From the NCBI GenBank assembly GCA_964483635.1, contig CAZABS010000001.1, positions 16,692-80,691 on the forward strand: a stretch of DNA of 64,000 nt. The letters are read 5' to 3'. A program made the translations under genes and the position numbers. Below, piece by piece: positions 1 through 6,327 of the stretch (position 1 is the first letter of the stretch; each line of letters starts with the position of its first letter). The notes below the pieces were generated by a model, which made no database searches, had not been told where the DNA came from, and saw only the letters and a program-made list of their open reading frames with translations. The DNA is from an uncultured Bdellovibrionales bacterium. GTDB lineage: Bacteria; Patescibacteriota; Minisyncoccia; Moranbacterales; UBA1568.

Positions 1-180
1 GCAAGAGTGCGAACTTGCAAAATCCCTCGAAATGCGAATACAACAGTAGGACGATTGCTCTACGAAAGCGATCCTGATTGGCAGTGTCTGGAATTGCCTC
101 ACATTGATTGTGGAGGAACCGGAGCTCCTCAGTACGCCAGGCAAGTTCCTCTTCCAGTTGCGAGCGGAACTCGGAGAGTT

Positions 181-1368
181 TCATGCTCCAGGAAGGACCC
201 GTTCACGAACAAATGCGATGCGCTCATTAAGTGGGCCAGGACTATTCTTCCCACCACCCGATGTCAGCTCGACAAAGGCAGCATCCATCTTCACTTCTTT
301 CATGACCGTTTTGAGTTGTTCCAGCTGCGCCTCCGAATCGAGATCCACAGCATCGAGACCCCGCTGAATGCCGACGGTAAACGCTTCGAACTGATAGATT
401 CCGAACCCACGAACGAGGCCAGTCCGCGTCTTGTTCGCTCGACTGAAAGCAGTGTCGCCGAGCGTTTTCGCGAGCACGTCAAACGTCTTTTGAAAGACCC
501 GCTCCTCACGCTCGTAGTCGAACTCAATGGGAGCATCTGGATCGGAAATCGCCTCCATGTATTCCGTAAGGAAGTCCGTGACGTCGTGCCGGAAGCGGTG
601 GCGCCAGTTCTTCAAAGCAAAGAACCGCAAAACCAGCTCTTTGTCGTAGGCCCCATAAAGCTGTTCTTCAGATATCGTTGAAATGCAGAGTTTGAATGAC
701 TCGGATGTATCGGCCAACCGGTTGATGAAGTCATTGAATCGCGGATCCAGCAATCGAATCGTGCAGTTTCTCAATTGCTGGGCGGTGAGCGGCTCACCAC
801 CAGTATTCAGTCGCTTGAACATGTGGTACTTGAACTTGGGATTGCTGCCCCGACGGATTACTTCGACACGCACAAACGACCGGCGCAGCTTTATCTGTAG
901 CGCGGTACCAAGATCGTCATACGTCTTTCCATTGAGTCGTGGGAGGATATCGCAATCCTGCAATATAAGTTTGTCACCCCTTTGAACCGGTGGGCGAAGG
1001 TGAGCAGCGTCCAGCATCCCGCGGAAGTGGAGATAAGAAGAGAGTCGTTGTAGACCGTCGATGAGGAGCTTCTTGTTATCTTCCTCTTCGACCATGTAAA
1101 TCGGAGGAACAGGCATTTCAAGAAGCAGTGATTCAATGAATCGGGATCGGGCACCCTCCGACCACTGAAAGAGCCGTTGATAGTCAGGGCGGATGTCCAA
1201 TTCGCCAGTCTCGACCATATCCGCAAGTTCGTTGAATGAGATGTCGAGGCTTTGGGTGTGGACACTCTTGAGCTGGACATCGAGATCTCGGATGAGATCA
1301 ACGACGCTTTCATCGTTCCCTGGAACCGGCATTGCTAACCTCGCTTGCAAGTGAGTGGTGTACCTCAA
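181..1368 (-). CDS. DUF262 (GmrSD N-terminal-like, ParB/Srx-fold) domain protein; last gene of the RM operon
   Basis: Motif IRPDYQRLFQWSEGARSRFIESLLLEMPVPPIYM matches the DUF262 (D/E)xQR...W signature. No HNH/DUF1524 half is recognisable. The gene lies 34 bp downstream of the REase on the same strand. Confidence 0.6.
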   Translation of the reverse strand: MRYTTHLQARLAMPVPGNDESVVDLIRDLDVQLKSVHTQSLDISFNELADMVETGELDIRPDYQRLFQWSEGARSRFIESLLLEMPVPPIYMVEEEDNKKLLIDGLQRLSSYLHFRGMLDAAHLRPPVQRGDKLILQDCDILPRLNGKTYDDLGTALQIKLRRSFVRVEVIRRGSNPKFKYHMFKRLNTGGEPLTAQQLRNCTIRLLDPRFNDFINRLADTSESFKLCISTISEEQLYGAYDKELVLRFFALKNWRHRFRHDVTDFLTEYMEAISDPDAPIEFDYEREERVFQKTFDVLAKTLGDTAFSRANKTRTGLVRGFGIYQFEAFTVGIQRGLDAVDLDSEAQLEQLKTVMKEVKMDAAFVELTSGGGKNSPGPLNERIAFVRERVLPGA

Positions 1369-1401
1369 GGCAGTCCATAGCTTCGTCCAAATACCGATTG
1401 G

Positions 1402-2268
1402 CTATTCGAAGCGCGCTTCATACGCCTTGGCCAAGTTGCTGATGAACTCGTCCCAGCGCAATCCGCTTCCAACCGGAGGTACATCGCTCTCTATTTGTCC
1501 TGTATTTGGGTCATATGCGACGACTGAGATGCCTTCGAGCAGATGCGCAGCGTCGGCCTCAGTCTCTCGGCCACCTGCACGGATCAGTCGTTTTACGGCA
1601 CGGTCGATGAGGTGACGGGTGGGTCGCTGGGACGGCAAGTGGGAAACGGGCGAGGGCTCGACTCCTGGTGGCACAGCTGAAATTGGCTCGCGATCCAGAT
1701 CAGCAGCCAATTCGGACGAATCACCTTTTTCCGCAACCTCTGCTTCCGCCTGCTCCGCCTCTATCGCGTCTTTGCTTCCGACTTCTTCGTAGGTCGGAAT
1801 CACCAGCACTCCCCCTACGACAGCGAAAGGGAATTTGAGGTGCAAGTTAACCGCAAAGGTCCGGAGATCGCCGAACCGGTTCCAGATTGCCCGCCCAACG
1901 GCGAGGTTCACGGGCTTGAGTTCAATGGCAAGGCGCAGGCCATCGAGTTCATTAGTCTCGGAGACGTCAGCATTGGTAGTGCGAAGCGCGCCGGCAACTT
2001 TGCGTTCCCCGACGATTGCGCCTGCGAGACTGGGGAGTTTGGCTTTGAGGTCATGCAAGAGTGCTCGGCCGAGTGCGTTCGATAGTCGAATCTGAGCCGC
2101 CTTCTTTGGCCCAGCGGCGAGCCCGCGTTGCTCGCGGACGTAGGCACTAACAGCGACAATGTAGTTTGATATGACACATGGATCGAGGGATGCGAGCCGA
2201 TCGATTGGTTCGATGCCCGTAGGCTCCGGGTCTTTCTTCTTGCGCGGCGACTTCCTTCGCGTAGCCAT
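1402..2268 (-). CDS. Putative Type II restriction endonuclease (PD-(D/E)xK-like)
   Basis: DGLRLAIELKP fits a D-x(n)-E-x-K catalytic motif. The start overlaps the MTase stop at 2268, implying translational coupling in an RM operon. Confidence 0.4.
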   Translation of the reverse strand: MATRRKSPRKKKDPEPTGIEPIDRLASLDPCVISNYIVAVSAYVREQRGLAAGPKKAAQIRLSNALGRALLHDLKAKLPSLAGAIVGERKVAGALRTTNADVSETNELDGLRLAIELKPVNLAVGRAIWNRFGDLRTFAVNLHLKFPFAVVGGVLVIPTYEEVGSKDAIEAEQAEAEVAEKGDSSELAADLDREPISAVPPGVEPSPVSHLPSQRPTRHLIDRAVKRLIRAGGRETEADAAHLLEGISVVAYDPNTGQIESDVPPVGSGLRWDEFISNLAKAYEARFE

Positions 2269-3164
2269 TACCGCCCAATTGCTTGCGCCCTGGACGCAGG
2301 GGTCTGCGGTAGGGTGCGGACGATCTTTAGATCGACGGTCAAACTCCCAAGAGCAGCCAATCGCGCTTCGATCATCTGAACATAGGCCGGCTCGATCTCG
2401 ACACCAATGCTGTTGCGTCCGGTCTCGACCGCCGCGAGTGTCGTGGTACCAGTACCGAGGAATGGATCTACGACGGTGTCACCCGCAAAGCTGAACATCC
2501 GAATGAGGCGGCGGGGAATCTCGATGGGATAGGGTGCTGGATGACCCTTGCGAAGCTGGCCGGTGACATCCGCCCAGACCGGCGCATACCATTTCATGTA
2601 GTCCTCGGTTTCGATGCGCGATCGACGCTCCATCTCTTGAGTGGGCTTGCGGTAGCCGCCTGGTTTCCGGAAGAAGAGAATATGCTCAATGTCGTTCTTG
2701 ACGATTCCGTTCGGGAGATTGGGTTTGCCGAGGAAACGAGAAGACCTGGAAGCCTCAAGTTTGATGTTGGCAACCTTGAGCCATCGAATAGGGGTCAAGT
2801 TGTCAAAGCCCAGCTTGCGTGCCCGTACTTGAAGATCGCCGGAGAGTGGCAAGACGTAGTGACGCCCACCAGCACGGCGTGAGACACACACGTCACCGAC
2901 AACACATGCGACGCGACCACCTGGCACGAGGATGCGCAGACATTCCGCCCACACCTTGTCGAGCTCGTCGAGAAAAACCTCATAGGAAGCGATATTCCCG
3001 AGCTGAGCGTCGTGATCGGGATAGGTCTTCAGTGAACCATACGGAGGACTGGTGCAAATGAGGTGGACACTCTCAGTAGTAATGGCCGCGAGCGAGCGAG
3101 CATCGCCCTCGTAGACCATGTGGTGGGTGAATCCAGCAGAGCGGCGTTTTCCCTGGTTTGGCAT
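2268..3164 (-). CDS. DNA methyltransferase, beta-class N4-cytosine/N6-adenine family
   Basis: TSPPY catalytic motif IV precedes DPFLGTGTT (FxGxG AdoMet motif I), the order typical of beta-class MTases in the N6_N4_Mtase family. Confidence 0.85.
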   Translation of the reverse strand: MPNQGKRRSAGFTHHMVYEGDARSLAAITTESVHLICTSPPYGSLKTYPDHDAQLGNIASYEVFLDELDKVWAECLRILVPGGRVACVVGDVCVSRRAGGRHYVLPLSGDLQVRARKLGFDNLTPIRWLKVANIKLEASRSSRFLGKPNLPNGIVKNDIEHILFFRKPGGYRKPTQEMERRSRIETEDYMKWYAPVWADVTGQLRKGHPAPYPIEIPRRLIRMFSFAGDTVVDPFLGTGTTTLAAVETGRNSIGVEIEPAYVQMIEARLAALGSLTVDLKIVRTLPQTPASRAQAIGR

Positions 3165-3182
3165 CAGGTTCTTCCTGGTGAA

Positions 3183-3386
3183 TCAGACTCGGTTCTGTTG
3201 CTCCAAGAGCGGCCACTGATCGGCAACGTACCTCTCGGCAGCGTCCCGCACCACCCAGGCCACCGAGACCTTCTTCTGCCTAGCGATCTCTTCGAGGGTT
3301 CGATAGAGGTCGGGCGGGAAGGTAACTGACGCACGCGGTGCGCTCGTCGTTTTGGCTTCGGGATGCGGTTTCGTGACTCGACTCAT
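3183..3386 (-). CDS. Ribbon-helix-helix (CopG/Arc-like) small regulator, putative RM controller
   Basis: It is 67 aa. VTFPPDLYRTLEEIARQKKVSVAWVVRDAAERYV is the beta-strand plus two-helix RHH pattern. It is the first gene of the minus-strand RM operon. Confidence 0.5.
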   Translation of the reverse strand: MSRVTKPHPEAKTTSAPRASVTFPPDLYRTLEEIARQKKVSVAWVVRDAAERYVADQWPLLEQQNRV

Positions 3387-3467
3387 CGGGTGCAGACCTC
3401 CAGACGCACCACTTTACACCGCCGTGGTGCACTCGTAAACTAAAAGCTCTTTCTTCGAGGACTGGTC

Positions 3468-4964
3468 ATGGGCAAGACCGGTTCCACCAAGCGTGTCGGC
3501 ATCTGGATTCGGGTCTCTACCGAGGATCAGGTGCGGGGTGAGAGCCCCGAGACCCACGAGCGTAGGGCTCGGGCGTACGCCGAAGCCAAGGAGTGGTCGG
3601 TCGCCCAGATCTACCGCCTGGATGCCGTTTCTGGGAAGACCGTCAAGGAACACCCCGAAGCCAAGCGGATGCTCCAAGACATCCGAGCAGGTCATATCAC
3701 CGGTCTCATCTTCTCGAAGCTCGCCCGCCTCGCACGGAACACCAAGGAACTCCTGGAGTTCGCCGAGTTCTTCCGGGAAGAGGAAGCCGACCTCGTGTCT
3801 CTCGCGGAATCGATCGATACGTCGACTCCGGCCGGTCGGCTCTTCTACACCATGATCGCTGCCATGGCTCAGTGGGAGAGAGAGGAGATCGCCGAGCGGG
3901 TCGCCGCCTCCGTTCCGGTACGCGCCAAGATGGGGAAGCCCTTGGGCGGAGCCGCTCCCTTCGGGTACCAGTGGCTGGATGGCAAGCTCCTCCCGGATCC
4001 CAAGGAGGCTCCGGTTCGGAAGCTTCTCTACGAACTCTTCCGAGAGCATCAGCGGAAGAAGACGGTCGCAAGGCTCTTGAGTGAGAAGGGTTACCGCACC
4101 CGGAACGGCTCAGCCTTCTCCGATACCACGGTCGCCCGGCTTGTCCGTGATCCAACCGCCAAGGGAGTCCGCCGCGCCAACTACACCAAGACCACGAACA
4201 GTAAGAAAGCCTGGGAGCGGAAGCCCGAGAGCGACTGGGTACTCCACGAGATTCCCGCGATTGTCCCCGAGGATCTCTGGAACGAGTGCAATGCCATCTT
4301 GGATGCCCGGAAGGACACCGGGAAGCGTCCGGCCAAGAAGGTGACCCACCTCTTCTCGGGAGTGACCTATTGCCAATGCGGTAGCAAGATGTATGTACCC
4401 TCGAATACCCCGAAGTACGTCTGCACCCAGTGCCGGAACAAGATCCCAATCATTGATCTCGACGCCGTCTTTCATGAGCAGCTGAGGGGGTTCCTCTTCT
4501 CTCCCGAGGAACTGGCTGTTCATCTGCGGGCAGCCGACGGTGCGCTCCGGGAGAAGGAGGAACTCCTCCAGGTACTCTCCCTGGAACGCGGGAAGCTCAC
4601 CGGAAAGATCGAGCGGCTCCACGAACTCTACGAAGTCGGCTCCATCGACAAGCACGGCTTCGGGCTGAAGTACCGCCCGATGGCCGAGCGCCTGGCGCAG
4701 CTCGACGACGAGATCCCGAAGACCCATGCCGAAGTGGACGTCATGAAGATCGCCCACCTCTCCCAAGAAGAGATCCTGGCCGAAGCAAGGGATCTCTTCA
4801 CTCGTTGGCCAACCCTCCCGGGAGACGAGAAGCGCCGCATTGTCGAAACCATTACCGAACGGATCACTATCGGTAAGGATGACATTGAGATCGACCTCTA
4901 CTACGTCCCGCCGGGACTCGGTGAAACCAAAGCCCGTCCCATTTCTACTCCTTCTTTCAATTGA
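3468..4964 (+). CDS. Large serine recombinase (integrase type)
   Basis: N-terminal resolvase catalytic domain (VGIWIRVSTEDQ with the Ser nucleophile, and LIFSKLARLARN). A recombinase domain follows, then a C-terminal zinc-ribbon (CQCGSKMY...CTQCRNK) and a coiled coil. Total length is 498 aa. Confidence 0.9.
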   Translation: MGKTGSTKRVGIWIRVSTEDQVRGESPETHERRARAYAEAKEWSVAQIYRLDAVSGKTVKEHPEAKRMLQDIRAGHITGLIFSKLARLARNTKELLEFAEFFREEEADLVSLAESIDTSTPAGRLFYTMIAAMAQWEREEIAERVAASVPVRAKMGKPLGGAAPFGYQWLDGKLLPDPKEAPVRKLLYELFREHQRKKTVARLLSEKGYRTRNGSAFSDTTVARLVRDPTAKGVRRANYTKTTNSKKAWERKPESDWVLHEIPAIVPEDLWNECNAILDARKDTGKRPAKKVTHLFSGVTYCQCGSKMYVPSNTPKYVCTQCRNKIPIIDLDAVFHEQLRGFLFSPEELAVHLRAADGALREKEELLQVLSLERGKLTGKIERLHELYEVGSIDKHGFGLKYRPMAERLAQLDDEIPKTHAEVDVMKIAHLSQEEILAEARDLFTRWPTLPGDEKRRIVETITERITIGKDDIEIDLYYVPPGLGETKARPISTPSFN

Positions 4965-4974
4965 TGGTGAATAC

Positions 4975-5280
4975 GCGATGAATCCTCATGGCCGCGTTGC
5001 CTTTTTGCCATTCGTCCTGATCAAGCTTAAGTGCCAGAAACCAAAGGGTTATTCCGAGAACCCTAAGACTATCGGCGAGCACGTGAGGAAACGCCGGATG
5101 GAGCTTGGGCTGACGCTTCGGGAAGCCGGGAGGCTTATGGGGGTGACTGAGTACACAGTCATCAATTGGGAAGGCGGCCACTGTGAGCCCTCCGTCAAGA
5201 GCTCTCGGGCGATCCGATCCTTCCTGTACTATGACCCATTGCCGGAGCCGGACACCCTCGGCGTCGACCGGACAACCTGA
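4975..5280 (+). CDS. XRE-family helix-turn-helix transcriptional regulator
   Basis: IGEHVRKRRMELGLTLREAGRLMGVTEYTVINWE is a canonical XRE HTH. The gene starts immediately 3' of the recombinase. I chose the internal ATG at 4975; the ORF track's longer 4840 start overlaps the recombinase. Confidence 0.6.
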   Translation, partial: AMNPHGRVAFLPFVLIKLKCQKPKGYSENPKTIGEHVRKRRMELGLTLREAGRLMGVTEYTVINWEGGHCEPSVKSSRAIRSFLYYDPLPEPDTLGVDRTT

Positions 5281-5430
5281 CGGGTCTGGGAAGGAGGCCG
5301 ATTAGTCCGGTTCTGTCGCCACCGCGTCGCCGTGGCGAAGCTTCTCGGCCTGGATCCGGCGTTCCTGACTGTGGAGTTGCGAAGCCGCCGGAACAGTAAG
5401 CTCCCGTTCCACGTTCCGACGTCTCCAGCG

Positions 5431-6327
5431 TCACCCGCACACGTACGCGTACGGACTCCCTCCGCCCATGCAGTGGCCAGGACATTGATTGAGGCGAACT
5501 GCACCACTTGCGCAACGCGGCTCCGGAGCACTGACTGGCGGGTTGAAGCCCCAGCAACCGCACGCTTGCATTCCGTAGCCAGGAGGATATCCAGACTGCG
5601 CCGGCGTGAAGCCGTCTCGAATTGACACCCACGATCCCTGATTCAAGAACTGCGCGATCCGAGGACTAACCTGGCTTTCGAAATCGTAGGCCTCCCGCTC
5701 GAAACGGTTCCGCCGATCCTGGCAGCCGCCGCACTCTACGTACTGTCGGCTGTAATCACACTTGAACCGATCGGTTCCGCTTGCCCGGTACTGGCGAATA
5801 TGAACGACCTCATGAGCAAGCGTTGAGGCTGTCGCCAAGGTATCCCCTTTGAGGGAGACATCAAGGTAGATCCGTCCGCGATCGGGAGCCATGCCGTGCG
5901 CTCCTTGGAGCGGGCACCACCGTGTCTGGACGCCGTTGAGCTCCCCAAGCTGGATGATGCCGGCCGAGGTCAGTGTGTTGATAGCCTGCACGATGAGGTG
6001 CTGATCATCGAGCCGTCCGTCCCAGTTCGAGCATCGGGCAATGACGATCCCCGTGACGGTTTGATACGGTCCGGTACAGGCCTGGGTGCCGTACGTCTCG
6101 ATCTGCTCCCGTGGTGTCAAGGGGATGTTGGGAACATTGGATCGGGTGACACAGGCGAGTTTCTTGGCAGCCTCACACTTGGCGTGACAGGTCGGCTCGA
6201 TGAACTCGACCGGCGGGAAGTCGGTGCGTATCCGGCACTGTCGGTGACAGTCGGTATCGCAGGATTCAGCCTGTGCCACCGTAACAGCGCCCGCAAAGAG
6301 CAGAGCGAGAGCAATTCGACGAAGCAT
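5431..6327 (-). CDS. Secreted cysteine-rich protein with an HExxH zinc-metallopeptidase-like motif
   Basis: Signal peptide MLRRIALALLFAGAVTVAQAES. Many Cys residues and an AHEVVHIRQY motif are present. Start is set at the internal Met; the ORF track extends to 6399. Confidence 0.45.
   Translation of the reverse strand: MLRRIALALLFAGAVTVAQAESCDTDCHRQCRIRTDFPPVEFIEPTCHAKCEAAKKLACVTRSNVPNIPLTPREQIETYGTQACTGPYQTVTGIVIARCSNWDGRLDDQHLIVQAINTLTSAGIIQLGELNGVQTRWCPLQGAHGMAPDRGRIYLDVSLKGDTLATASTLAHEVVHIRQYRASGTDRFKCDYSRQYVECGGCQDRRNRFEREAYDFESQVSPRIAQFLNQGSWVSIRDGFTPAQSGYPPGYGMQACGCWGFNPPVSAPEPRCASGAVRLNQCPGHCMGGGSPYAYVCG

What the first reader, a model, noticed from the sequence alone, without database searches (positions are those of the whole stretch)
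181..3386. Four-gene minus-strand operon: RHH regulator – SPPY methyltransferase – PD-(D/E)xK endonuclease – DUF262 protein
The MTase and REase are translationally coupled, sharing position 2268. A standalone DUF262 (GmrSD N-terminal-like) gene follows 34 bp downstream with no recognisable DUF1524/HNH partner. DUF262 proteins normally act as modification-dependent nucleases together with a DUF1524 domain. A DUF262-only protein appended to a classical Type II RM may be an auxiliary defence component or a truncated GmrSD.
Basis: partly seen in the sequence, partly recalled or inferred. Interest (0 to 1): 0.5.

Follow-up and report, generated by a model that had tools for sequence, protein, structure and literature searches.

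The report
Restriction operon with DUF262–HEPN defence pair
The "lone" DUF262 gene is not alone: a fifth gene for a HEPN RNase, cut off by the window edge, overlaps its stop codon, so this is a known type of DUF262–HEPN defence pair, here joined to a complete restriction–modification module instead of its usual dedicated methylase.

Summary

The interpretation of a partner-less DUF262 or truncated GmrSD is wrong. An ATG at 184-182 overlaps the DUF262 stop (ATGA) and opens a fifth gene that runs off the window's left edge. Its 61 visible residues match HEPN_MAE_28990 (E 1.7e-12). A 100% identical contig (L078) shows the whole 247-aa gene, with an Rx4H motif.

In 77 related loci a HEPN gene follows the DUF262 gene in 71. 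A methyltransferase lies upstream in 70. All 56 directly adjacent upstream methyltransferases examined for the motif carry SPPY, the motif typical of cytosine-N4 enzymes.

This methylase–ParB(DUF262)–HEPN operon was noted in 2013. A DUF262+HEPN pair, PD-T4-2, is a validated anti-phage system.

What is new here is a mosaic. The usual ~435-aa methylase is replaced by an RHH–methylase–endonuclease module, with the junction in the 69-nt gap at 1401-1333.

Verdict: a new variant of a known kind, of moderate interest. Whether the pair depends on the methylase is unproven.

The parts
3406..3439 (-). Candidate promoter and operator upstream of the RHH gene. It has a -35-like TTTACG (3439-3434), a 17-nt spacer and a -10-like TAAAGT (3416-3411). 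The block GCACCACGGCGGTGTAAAGTGGTGC (3430-3406) has inverted ends GCACC/GGTGC.
   Evidence: The block GCACC..GGTGTAAAGTGGTGC is invariant in L078, L084, L086 and L087 while the flanks diverge (sequence). Its function is inferred.
3183..3386 (-). Ribbon-helix-helix (CopG-like) protein of 67 aa, the putative transcriptional controller of the operon.
   Evidence: PF01402 E 1.5e-6. It is 80-83% identical in L086 and L084, in the same position ahead of the methyltransferase.
2268..3164 (-). Beta-class amino-methyltransferase of 298 aa, with motif IV SPPY (residue 39) and motif I FLGTG (residue 235). It is predicted to be cytosine-N4 specific.
   Evidence: PF01555 E 1.2e-34. PDB 2zie (TTHA0409) E 2e-95, and cytosine-N4 methyltransferase 8s9n E 3e-13. 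Motifs. The SPPY-to-m4C link is taken from PMC10406627 and is an inference for this enzyme.
1402..2268 (-). Putative Type II restriction endonuclease of 288 aa, from an uncharacterised family. It has a PD-(D/E)xK core with D101 and E116-x-K118, and a variable acidic insert around residues 165-215.
1333..1401 (.). 69-nt intergenic gap, the junction between the RM module and the DUF262-HEPN cassette.
   Evidence: DNA similarity to L084 and L086 ends at the ORF288 stop. Similarity to L001-L004 begins 27-51 nt into the DUF262 gene. GC falls from 57-61% to 50-52%.
181..1332 (-). ParB-DUF262 plus ParBDB protein of 383 aa (NsnA-like architecture), the predicted NTPase and DNA sensor. The alternative TTG start at 1368 would give 395 aa.
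   Evidence: PF03235 E 4e-23. PADLOC NsnA E 3.6e-58 over the full length, and PD-T4-2_A E 1e-37. Motifs QRLFQW, DGLQR and FKRLN are present. RBS and ATG. Domain naming follows PMC12065111.
1..184 (-). First 61 codons of a HEPN RNase gene (MAE_28990 / RiboL-PSP family). The ATG at 184-182 overlaps the DUF262 stop. The gene is cut by the window edge; its full length is 247 aa.
   Evidence: Translation. PF18737 E 1.7e-12 and PF18735 E 3.5e-12. The complete gene lies in the 100%-identical contig L078 at 5366-6109, with LRNKIAH as the Rx4H motif.
3468..4964 (+). Large serine recombinase of 498 aa, divergent from the operon. It marks the locus as cargo of a mobile element.
   Evidence: PF00239 E 1e-33 and PF07508 E 2e-17. 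A 73%-identical recombinase sits in the same position in L086 and L087.

Best explanation
This is a five-gene defence operon on a serine-recombinase mobile element, built from two modules.

Module 1 (RHH, methyltransferase, ORF288) is a Type II restriction-modification system.
- The SPPY methyltransferase marks host DNA, probably as N4-methylcytosine.
- The PD-(D/E)xK enzyme cuts unmarked DNA.
- The RHH protein probably autoregulates the promoter through the conserved GCACC..GGTGC element.

Module 2 (DUF262, HEPN) is a sensor-effector pair of the same kind as PD-T4-2 and the 'MAE_28990' methylase-ParB-HEPN operons.
- The ParB-like DUF262 NTPase, with its ParBDB DNA-binding domain, reads DNA.
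- It then switches on the HEPN RNase, whose Rx4H site is intact.
- The RNase cleaves RNA and stops phage growth, probably by abortive infection or growth arrest.

Elsewhere this pair almost always sits directly behind its own SPPY methyltransferase. Here, that dedicated methylase has been replaced by the RM's SPPY methyltransferase. I therefore infer that the pair uses the methylation mark for self/non-self discrimination. On that reading the operon has one modification enzyme and two effectors, one cutting DNA and one cutting RNA.

Shown: gene content, motifs, the fold of ORF288, conserved neighbourhoods, and mosaic ancestry.
Inferred: m4C specificity, RNase activity, the direction of sensing, and any dependence of the pair on the methyltransferase.
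For: The fifth gene:
- An ATGA overlap opens a 61-codon ORF that matches PF18737 above its curated cut-off.
- The full 247-aa gene is present in the identical contig L078.

Conserved neighbourhood:
- A HEPN homolog lies directly downstream of the DUF262 homolog in 71 of 77 loci. In most cases the overlap is 4 bases.
- A methyltransferase lies upstream on the same strand in 70 of 77 loci. In two of the other seven the contig starts inside the DUF262 gene.
- All 56 directly adjacent upstream methyltransferases scored carry SPPY, including the beta-class enzymes of L073 and L074. So do the beta-class ones of the window, L084, L086 and L090.
- The three proteins of the canonical cassette co-diverge, with r 0.79-0.88 over 42 loci.
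- Catalytic motifs are kept in 65-68 of 70 DUF262 proteins and 65 of 66 HEPN proteins.

Mosaic ancestry:
- Against L086 and L084, RHH, methyltransferase and ORF288 are 71-83% identical, but DUF262 is only 23-28%.
- Against L001 and L002, DUF262 is 73% and HEPN 54-57% identical, while the L002 methyltransferase is unrelated apart from one short motif.
- The junction and a GC step fall in the 69-nt gap.

RM module:
- Methyltransferase and ORF288 are adjacent in 9 of 9 contexts.
- ORF288 has a restriction-endonuclease fold.

Literature:
- PD-T4-2 is described as 'DUF262, HEPN' and is validated against T4 (PMC9519451, Table S1).
- DUF262 acts as an NTPase sensor that reads a host modification in SspE (PMC12065111, PMC10952713).
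Against: - PD-T4-2 protects E. coli when cloned as two genes without any methyltransferase (PMC9519451, Table S2). A DUF262-HEPN pair therefore need not depend on one.
- A pair 73%/57% identical to pairs that sit behind a ~435-aa methylase works here behind an unrelated methylase. That is hard to reconcile with sequence-specific reading of the mark.
- One related RHH-M-R locus carries DUF6119, a Schlafen-like helicase and an HNH protein in the same downstream slot. The slot may simply hold variable defence cargo.
- The 56 SPPY methylases are largely one protein family, so they are not 56 independent observations.
- No transcript, methylome or activity data exist.
- SPPY as an m4C marker is a rule of thumb, not a test.
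- The simple promoter and terminator scans were uninformative.
Confidence: 0.55

Rival explanations
1. Two independent defence systems are neighbours. The Type II RM and the DUF262-HEPN pair work separately, and the pair senses something other than this methyltransferase's mark, such as hypermodified phage DNA, as GmrSD does. They are adjacent because the position after the RM in this mobile-element family is a hot spot for defence cargo.
For: - PD-T4-2 works without a methylase and acts on T4, which has glucosyl-hmC DNA (PMC9519451).
- The cassette junction and GC step show a recent swap.
- A sister locus has different defence genes in the same slot.
- ORF288-type RM pairs occur alone in 4 of 9 contexts.
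Against: - A methyltransferase lies upstream in 70 of 77 loci, across many phyla, usually with overlapping or near-abutting reading frames.
- Every directly adjacent methyltransferase examined has SPPY, in two unrelated methyltransferase architectures.
- Three very different DUF262-HEPN lineages (21-28% identity) each sit behind the same RM family.
- A modification-dependent sensor sitting next to a methylase would risk self-attack.
Confidence: 0.3
2. Addiction or guard module. DUF262-HEPN is a latent toxin that fires when methylation lapses. That could follow loss of the mobile element, or a phage anti-RM or SAM-depleting function. It would stabilise the element and back up the RM, much as PrrC backs up EcoprrI.
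For: - The pair sits at the distal end of the operon, translationally coupled, on a recombinase-borne element.
- HEPN RNases embedded in RM loci are known latent toxins (PrrC; cited in bioRxiv 10.64898/2026.02.22.705581 and in PMC3710099).
- The strict methyltransferase linkage fits.
Against: No direct evidence supports it. It overlaps with the best explanation and differs only in the trigger. No antitoxin-like partner was recognised.
Confidence: 0.1
3. One reading: a standalone DUF262 protein, or a decayed GmrSD that has lost its DUF1524 nuclease half.
For: A DUF262 hit without a DUF1524 hit.
Against: - The protein is full length and matches NsnA-like proteins end to end.
- Its length is conserved in 70 homologs.
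- A HEPN gene follows with an ATGA overlap.
- Pfam finds no DUF1524 in the protein, and no downstream gene in L078 has a DUF1524 or HNH hit.
Confidence: 0.02
4. A partial Menshen (NsnABC) system, given that NsnA is the best PADLOC match.
For: NsnA profile E 3.6e-58 over the full length.
Against: The gene after the DUF262 gene is a 247-aa HEPN protein. It is neither an NsnB ABC ATPase (AAA_15 with DUF3696) nor an NsnC. Menshen is defined by NsnA followed by NsnB and then a third gene (PMC12065111).
Confidence: 0.02

Closest known systems
Methylase - ParB(DUF262) - MAE_28990-family HEPN operon (Anantharaman et al. 2013, Biol Direct 8:15, Table 1). RefSeq annotates it as 'DNA methyltransferase / DUF262 domain-containing protein / MAE_28990/MAE_18760 family HEPN-like nuclease', for example on Roseomonas mucosa plasmid NZ_CP025192.
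   Same: - DUF262 is 54-73% identical to members of this cassette, and HEPN 54-57% to those compared.
- The gene order DUF262 then HEPN, with a 4-base overlap, is the same.
- An SPPY methyltransferase lies upstream in the same operon.
- The DGxQR and Rx4H motifs are conserved.
   Different: - The dedicated ~435-aa permuted methyltransferase is missing.
- Its place is taken by an unrelated 298-aa beta-class SPPY methyltransferase that brings its own endonuclease and an RHH regulator.
- The endonuclease gene lies between the methyltransferase and DUF262.
PD-T4-2 (Vassallo et al. 2022; E. coli ECOR65), a two-gene 'DUF262, HEPN' anti-phage system
   Same: It has the same two-domain composition: DUF262 plus a PF18735-type HEPN (PMC10952713). 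Gene A of PD-T4-2 matches at E 1e-37.
   Different: - No PADLOC model, PD-T4-2 gene B included, matches the HEPN partner better than E 0.01.
- PD-T4-2 is smaller, about 1.5 kb for both genes.
- PD-T4-2 works without a methylase.
- No DNA similarity was found in E. coli genomes.
Menshen NsnA (ParB-DUF262 plus ParBDB sensor)
   Same: It is the best profile match, and the two-domain architecture is the same (PMC12065111).
   Different: There is no NsnB ATPase and no NsnC effector. The effector here is a separate HEPN protein.
GmrSD / BrxU / SspE (DUF262 fused to a DUF1524 HNH nuclease)
   Same: It shares the DUF262 NTPase domain. It also fits the idea that this domain reads a DNA modification, as SspE reads the host's own phosphorothioate mark.
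   Different: There is no DUF1524 domain. The effector is an RNase-type HEPN protein, encoded separately.
Type IIP restriction-modification systems with CCGG-family endonucleases (AgeI, NgoMIV, PspGI, Cfr10I) and C-protein control
   Same: - The methyltransferase and endonuclease genes overlap.
- A small upstream regulator lies next to a conserved inverted repeat.
   Different: - The endonuclease family is uncharacterised and has no sequence match to any solved or named enzyme.
- The regulator is RHH rather than the usual helix-turn-helix C protein.
- The recognition sequence is unknown.
PrrC/EcoprrI and RloC: HEPN-type anticodon nucleases embedded in RM loci
   Same: An RNase effector is genetically embedded in a restriction-modification operon as a second line of defence.
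   Different: The RM type and RNase family differ, and the sensor here is a DUF262 protein. No evidence was found for an inhibitory protein-protein complex.

Membership tests
GmrSD-type Type IV enzyme (DUF262 + DUF1524) | DUF262 (PF03235) NTPase domain | tested here: met
   PF03235 E 4.1e-23, residues 56-203. QRxxxW, DGxQR and FxxxN are present.
GmrSD-type Type IV enzyme (DUF262 + DUF1524) | DUF1524 / His-Me finger nuclease domain, fused or adjacent | tested here: not met
   Pfam gives no DUF1524 or HNH hit at E <= 0.1. The downstream gene is HEPN, and no gene in the next 8 kb of L078 has such a hit.
Menshen (NsnABC) | NsnA-like protein (ParB-DUF262 + ParBDB) | tested here: met
   PADLOC NsnA E 3.6e-58, protein residues 34-370 against profile positions 42-359 of 385.
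Menshen (NsnABC) | NsnB ABC ATPase (AAA_15 + DUF3696) directly downstream, followed by NsnC | tested here: not met
   The next gene is a 247-aa HEPN protein and the gene after it is convergent. The HEPN protein gives no NsnB or NsnC hit in PADLOC.
PD-T4-2 | Gene A: DUF262 protein matching the PD-T4-2_A model | tested here: met
   PDLC04027 E 1e-37, residues 46-365. This is weaker than the NsnA match.
PD-T4-2 | Gene B: HEPN protein matching the PD-T4-2 gene B model | tested here: not met
   The full-length HEPN from L078, and the partners from L002, L073, L084 and L086, give no PADLOC match better than E 0.01 and none named PD-T4-2. At domain level the Pfam family reported for PD-T4-2 (PF18735) is matched.
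PD-T4-2 | Anti-phage activity of the two genes alone | not testable with these tools
   This needs cloning and phage challenge.
Methylase-ParB-HEPN(MAE_28990) operon | HEPN of the MAE_28990 / RiboL-PSP family with an Rx4-6H motif | tested here: met
   PF18737 at 48 bits against a cut-off of 26.8, on the 61-aa fragment. Precomputed PF18737 and PF18735 hits on the full protein. LRNKIAH is present.
Methylase-ParB-HEPN(MAE_28990) operon | ParB/DUF262 gene immediately upstream of the HEPN gene | tested here: met
   ATGA overlap at 184-181. The same arrangement occurs in 71 of 77 related loci.
Methylase-ParB-HEPN(MAE_28990) operon | DNA methylase gene in the same operon | tested here: met
   A PF01555 methyltransferase lies upstream on the same strand. 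It belongs to a different family from the usual ~435-aa enzyme and is separated from DUF262 by an endonuclease gene.
Type II restriction-modification system | Amino-methyltransferase with catalytic motif IV and SAM-binding motif I | tested here: met
   SPPY at residue 39 and FLGTG at 235. PF01555 E 1.2e-34. PDB 2zie E 2e-95.
Type II restriction-modification system | Adjacent endonuclease with a PD-(D/E)xK fold and catalytic residues | tested here: met
Type II restriction-modification system | Sequence-specific cleavage blocked by the cognate methylation | not testable with these tools
   This needs enzyme assays and a methylome.
RM controller (C) proteins | Helix-turn-helix (Xre-type) fold binding C-boxes upstream of its own gene | tested here: not met
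   The regulator is RHH (PF01402), not HTH. A conserved inverted-repeat element is present upstream, so it may work in a similar way.
Dazbog | Matches to DzbA and DzbB | tested here: not met
   PADLOC scans at E <= 0.1 to 1 listed no Dazbog family for the DUF262 or HEPN proteins.

The most novel reading that the evidence does not exclude
DUF262-HEPN pairs of this family are RNA-targeting 'restriction' effectors that depend on N4-methylcytosine. They read the mark, or its absence, regardless of sequence context. They can therefore plug in behind any SPPY methyltransferase, whether a dedicated one or the methylase of a complete Type II RM. This locus would then be a natural one-methylase, two-effector system, in which unmethylated invading DNA triggers both DNA cleavage and an RNase response.
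Probability: 0.35. Interest if true: 0.65.

Novelty: new variant of a known kind. Interest (0 to 1): 0.4.

Why it matters
The practical lesson is that a 'partner-less' gene at a window edge must be checked across the boundary. Here the missing partner changes the interpretation completely.

Three points give the locus its biological interest.
- The methylase–DUF262–HEPN cassette is widespread. It occurs in Proteobacteria, Bacteroidota, Cyanobacteria, Acidobacteriota, Firmicutes, Actinobacteria and Deinococcota among the 77 loci. It has been noted since 2013, but I found no mechanistic study of it in the literature I could search.
- Every adjacent methyltransferase I examined carries SPPY, in two unrelated methyltransferase architectures. 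This suggests a link to N4-methylcytosine. I could not find that link stated in the papers I searched.
- This locus and its relatives show the pair being swapped as a cassette behind a complete RM system. That makes them a natural experiment for whether the pair depends on methylation.

If the pair does depend on methylation, this would be an RM-like system whose effector is an RNase. The 288-aa protein also defines a large family (over 1000 members) of unannotated putative Type II endonucleases.

Tried and rejected
- Exact-sequence look-up of the 395-aa DUF262 ORF found nothing. Gene callers use the ATG start, which gives 383 aa. Looking up ORF288 (P0001) instead recovered the source-identical contig L078.
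- NCBIfam and PADLOC gave no hit for the 61-aa HEPN fragment. Only Pfam did.
- PDB sequence searches found nothing for ORF288, as a single sequence or as a profile, or for the DUF262 protein.
- A blastn search of an enterobacterial homolog against complete E. coli genomes, meant to reach PD-T4-2 in its native context, found no match. I could not check what flanks PD-T4-2 in ECOR65.
- The promoter and terminator consensus scans were at background level.
- tblastn found no homolog of ORF288 or the RHH protein in the 77 DUF262 loci. This is what first showed that the RM module is not part of the canonical cassette.
- The recognition sequence of the RM could not be inferred. The related methyltransferases in L073 and L074 partner with a XhoI-family enzyme, but 55-57% identity does not fix specificity.
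- Readings considered and rejected: Menshen, Dazbog, GmrSD remnant (see the membership tests).


Full report
**1. The observation**

- The 67-aa protein (3386..3183) is a ribbon-helix-helix protein (PF01402, E 1.5e-6).
- The 298-aa protein (3164..2268) is an N6/N4 amino-methyltransferase (PF01555, E 1.2e-34). SPPY lies at residue 39 and FLGTG at residue 235, which is the beta-class motif order. Its closest solved relative is TTHA0409 (PDB 2zie, E 2e-95). Cytosine-N4 methyltransferases are also matched.
- Its stop codon and the start of the next ORF share one base, TAATG at 2268.
- The 181..1368 ORF matches GmrSD_N/DUF262 (PF03235, E 4.1e-23), with no DUF1524 or HNH hit.

**2. The 288-aa ORF**

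Sequence searches give no name for this ORF.
- It has no Pfam or NCBIfam hit, and no PDB hit as a single sequence or as a profile.
- It has more than 1000 homologs, all unnamed.
- D101 and K118 are invariant and E116 is nearly invariant in 118 sequences. They form a D…ExK pattern.

Structure prediction supports a nuclease.
- A deeper alignment gave a model with pLDDT 79 and pTM 0.79. It has a helix, three strands, a helix and a strand. D101 lies in strand 2 and E116-x-K118 in strand 3.
- All 34 family members scanned also give a weak hit to one PADLOC Type II REase model (best E 8.7e-5).

The genomic context fits an RM pair. In nine independent contexts a PF01555 methyltransferase lies directly upstream, usually with overlapping stop and start. 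In four of them the pair sits without DUF262-HEPN: three chromosomal loci among housekeeping genes and one plasmid.

**3.

The DUF262 stop codon is part of the sequence GCATGA. The ATG at 184-182 opens a reading frame that stays open to base 1 of the window. Its 61 residues match HEPN_MAE_28990 from profile position 1 (PF18737, E 1.7e-12, 48 bits against a cut-off of 26.8). They also match RiboL-PSP-HEPN (PF18735).

Looking up ORF288 in public assemblies recovered contig L078.
- L078 is 100% identical to window 1-5549 and extends 8.6 kb beyond the window's left edge.
- The HEPN gene there is complete: 247 aa, with LRNKIAH as the Rx4H catalytic motif.
- The next gene is convergent.

The gene caller starts the DUF262 protein at the ATG that corresponds to window 1332, giving 383 aa. 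That start has GAGG 6 nt upstream and matches the length of the homologs. The gap after ORF288 is therefore 69 nt.

The DUF262 protein is full length.
- It matches the PADLOC NsnA profile almost end to end (E 3.6e-58) and PD-T4-2_A at E 1e-37.
- It keeps the QRxxxW, DGxQR and FxxxN motifs. The Menshen study describes these as the nucleotide-binding centre of ParB-DUF262, which is followed by a DNA-binding 'ParBDB' domain (PMC12065111).

It is neither standalone nor a decayed GmrSD.

**4. Related loci**

A scan of one genome per species found 77 loci with DUF262 homologs at 34-73% identity. They come from many phyla, and the source genome itself is not among them.
- A HEPN homolog lies directly downstream in 71 of the 77. 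In most cases the overlap is the same 4 bases.
- A methyltransferase lies upstream on the same strand in 70 of the 77. In two of the remaining seven the contig starts inside the DUF262 gene.
- The usual partner is a ~435-aa PF01555 enzyme with the motif order permuted, motif I first.
- RefSeq annotates the trio as 'DNA methyltransferase / DUF262 domain-containing protein / MAE_28990/MAE_18760 family HEPN-like nuclease'.
- The three proteins co-diverge. Pairwise identities correlate at r 0.79-0.88 over 42 loci.
- The catalytic motifs are kept in nearly all complete copies.
- All 56 directly adjacent upstream methyltransferases scored have SPPY as motif IV. None has DPPY or NPPY.
- The unrelated beta-class methyltransferases that precede DUF262-HEPN in the window, L073/L074, L084, L086 and L090 also have SPPY.

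SPPY is the motif of structurally characterised cytosine-N4 enzymes, and adenine enzymes such as CcrM have DPPY (PMC10406627). For these particular proteins, m4C remains an inference.

**5. A mosaic**

| Compared with | RHH | Methyltransferase | ORF288 | Recombinase | DUF262 | HEPN |
|---|---|---|---|---|---|---|
| L086 | 80% | 82% | 77% | 73% | 28% | 21% |
| L084 | 83% | 83% | 71% | not present | 23% | not alignable, but has an Rx4H motif |
| L001/L002 | absent | unrelated (L002) | absent | absent | 73% | 54-57% |

At the DNA level:
- Similarity to L084 and L086 stops at the ORF288 stop codon.
- Similarity to L001-L004 starts 27-51 nt into the DUF262 gene.
- GC drops from 57-61% to 50-52%. 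The flanks are at 59-60%.

The DUF262-HEPN pair is therefore a cassette, joined to the RM module in the 69-nt gap at window 1401-1333. Three very different lineages of the pair sit behind the same RM family. One sister locus has other defence genes in that slot: DUF6119, a Schlafen-like helicase and an HNH protein. In three Nitrospira-like loci a XhoI-family endonuclease and a methyltransferase 55-57% identical to this one precede a DUF262-HEPN pair.

**6. What is known**

- Anantharaman et al. [quoted passage not shown]
- PD-T4-2 from E. coli ECOR65 is described as 'DUF262, HEPN'. It is about 1.5 kb, was cloned without a methylase, and is validated against T4 in both native and heterologous hosts (PMC9519451).
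- Reviews list PD-T4-2, Dazbog and Menshen as the DUF262 systems that lack DUF1524, and call them largely uncharacterised (PMC10952713, PMC12065111).
- Only the 2013 paper mentions MAE_28990 in the searchable library.

The HEPN partner here, and its homologs, do not match any PADLOC model convincingly. By HMM criteria the locus is therefore not a PD-T4-2 member, although it has the same domain composition. It is not Menshen, because NsnB and NsnC are absent. It is not GmrSD, because DUF1524 is absent.

**7. Mechanism**

*Shown:* gene content, motifs, the fold of ORF288, conserved neighbourhoods and mosaic ancestry.

*Inferred:*
- The RHH protein controls the operon through a conserved element, GCACC-N6-GGTGTAAAGTGGTGC at 3430-3406. 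This element overlaps a -10-like hexamer.
- The methyltransferase lays down m4C, and ORF288 cuts unmarked DNA.
- The DUF262 NTPase and DNA-binding protein reads DNA and switches on the HEPN RNase.

I favour the view (about 0.55) that the pair uses the methyltransferase's mark for self/non-self discrimination. The reasons are the near-universal methyltransferase linkage and the SPPY rule. The way SspE's DUF262 domain reads the host's own phosphorothioate mark is a precedent (PMC12065111, PMC10952713).

The main rival (about 0.3) is that the two systems are independent and share a cargo slot. PD-T4-2's independence from any methylase supports this, as do the cassette swap and the alternative cargo seen. 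A guard or addiction variant is also possible.

**8. Verdict**

- The interpretation of a partner-less or truncated DUF262 is wrong.
- The locus is a new variant of a known kind.
- Interest is moderate. The m4C link and the natural cassette swap are the parts worth following up.

Noticed in passing
window 3406-3439 (minus strand): A conserved 25-nt block, GCACCACGGCGGTGTAAAGTGGTGC, lies upstream of the RHH gene. GCACC..GGTGTAAAGTGGTGC is invariant in four diverged elements while the flanks vary. It has inverted ends GCACC/GGTGC and overlaps a -10-like TAAAGT, with a -35-like TTTACG 17 nt upstream. It may be an RHH operator and promoter, analogous to the C-box of RM controller proteins.
   Followed up: partly
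window 1-1332 versus 1402-3386; L078:4149-4217: GC content steps down from 57-61% in the RHH, methyltransferase and ORF288 genes to 50-52% in the DUF262 and HEPN genes. The flanks are at 59-60%. The step coincides with the point where DNA similarity switches from one set of relatives to another.
   Followed up: yes
window 3468-4964 (+); L086:2275-3711: A large serine recombinase is divergent from the operon. In the sister element L086 the homologous recombinase lies next to a ComM/Mg-chelatase-like gene, which may be the integration target. The ends of the element in the window were not mapped.
   Followed up: no
L073:6177-9845, L074, L077: Nitrospira-like loci carry a XhoI-family endonuclease (PF04555, E 8e-94), a methyltransferase 55-57% identical to the window's, and then DUF262 and HEPN genes. 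The DUF262 reading frame looks disrupted in L077. This is a second, independent joining of a complete Type II RM to a DUF262-HEPN pair.
   Followed up: partly
window 1402-2268, residues ~165-215 of ORF288: A variable, glutamate- and alanine-rich, low-confidence insert splits the conserved nuclease core from a conserved C-terminal domain in all homologs. Its role is unknown.
   Followed up: no
window 181-1332, residues 56-115: A PADLOC 'Type II REase' model (PDLC03418) matches the DUF262 N-terminus at E 1.8e-7. It also matches the DUF262 proteins of L002, L084 and L086. This suggests that at least one entry used to build that Type II REase model is a DUF262 protein.
   Followed up: no
L084:6960-7604 and L090:5989-6594: The 201-214-aa proteins after the DUF262 genes in these sister loci have no Pfam or PADLOC hit. 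They do carry an Rx4H motif (FRNFYAH), so they are probably very divergent HEPN partners.
   Followed up: partly
L078:6236-10060 (beyond the window's left edge): Convergent genes follow the operon. They encode Lcl_C-domain proteins, including a 973-aa protein with Peptidase_M23 and Lcl_C domains. This region is variable between sister elements. Similarity to L086 resumes only at L078:11843.
   Followed up: no
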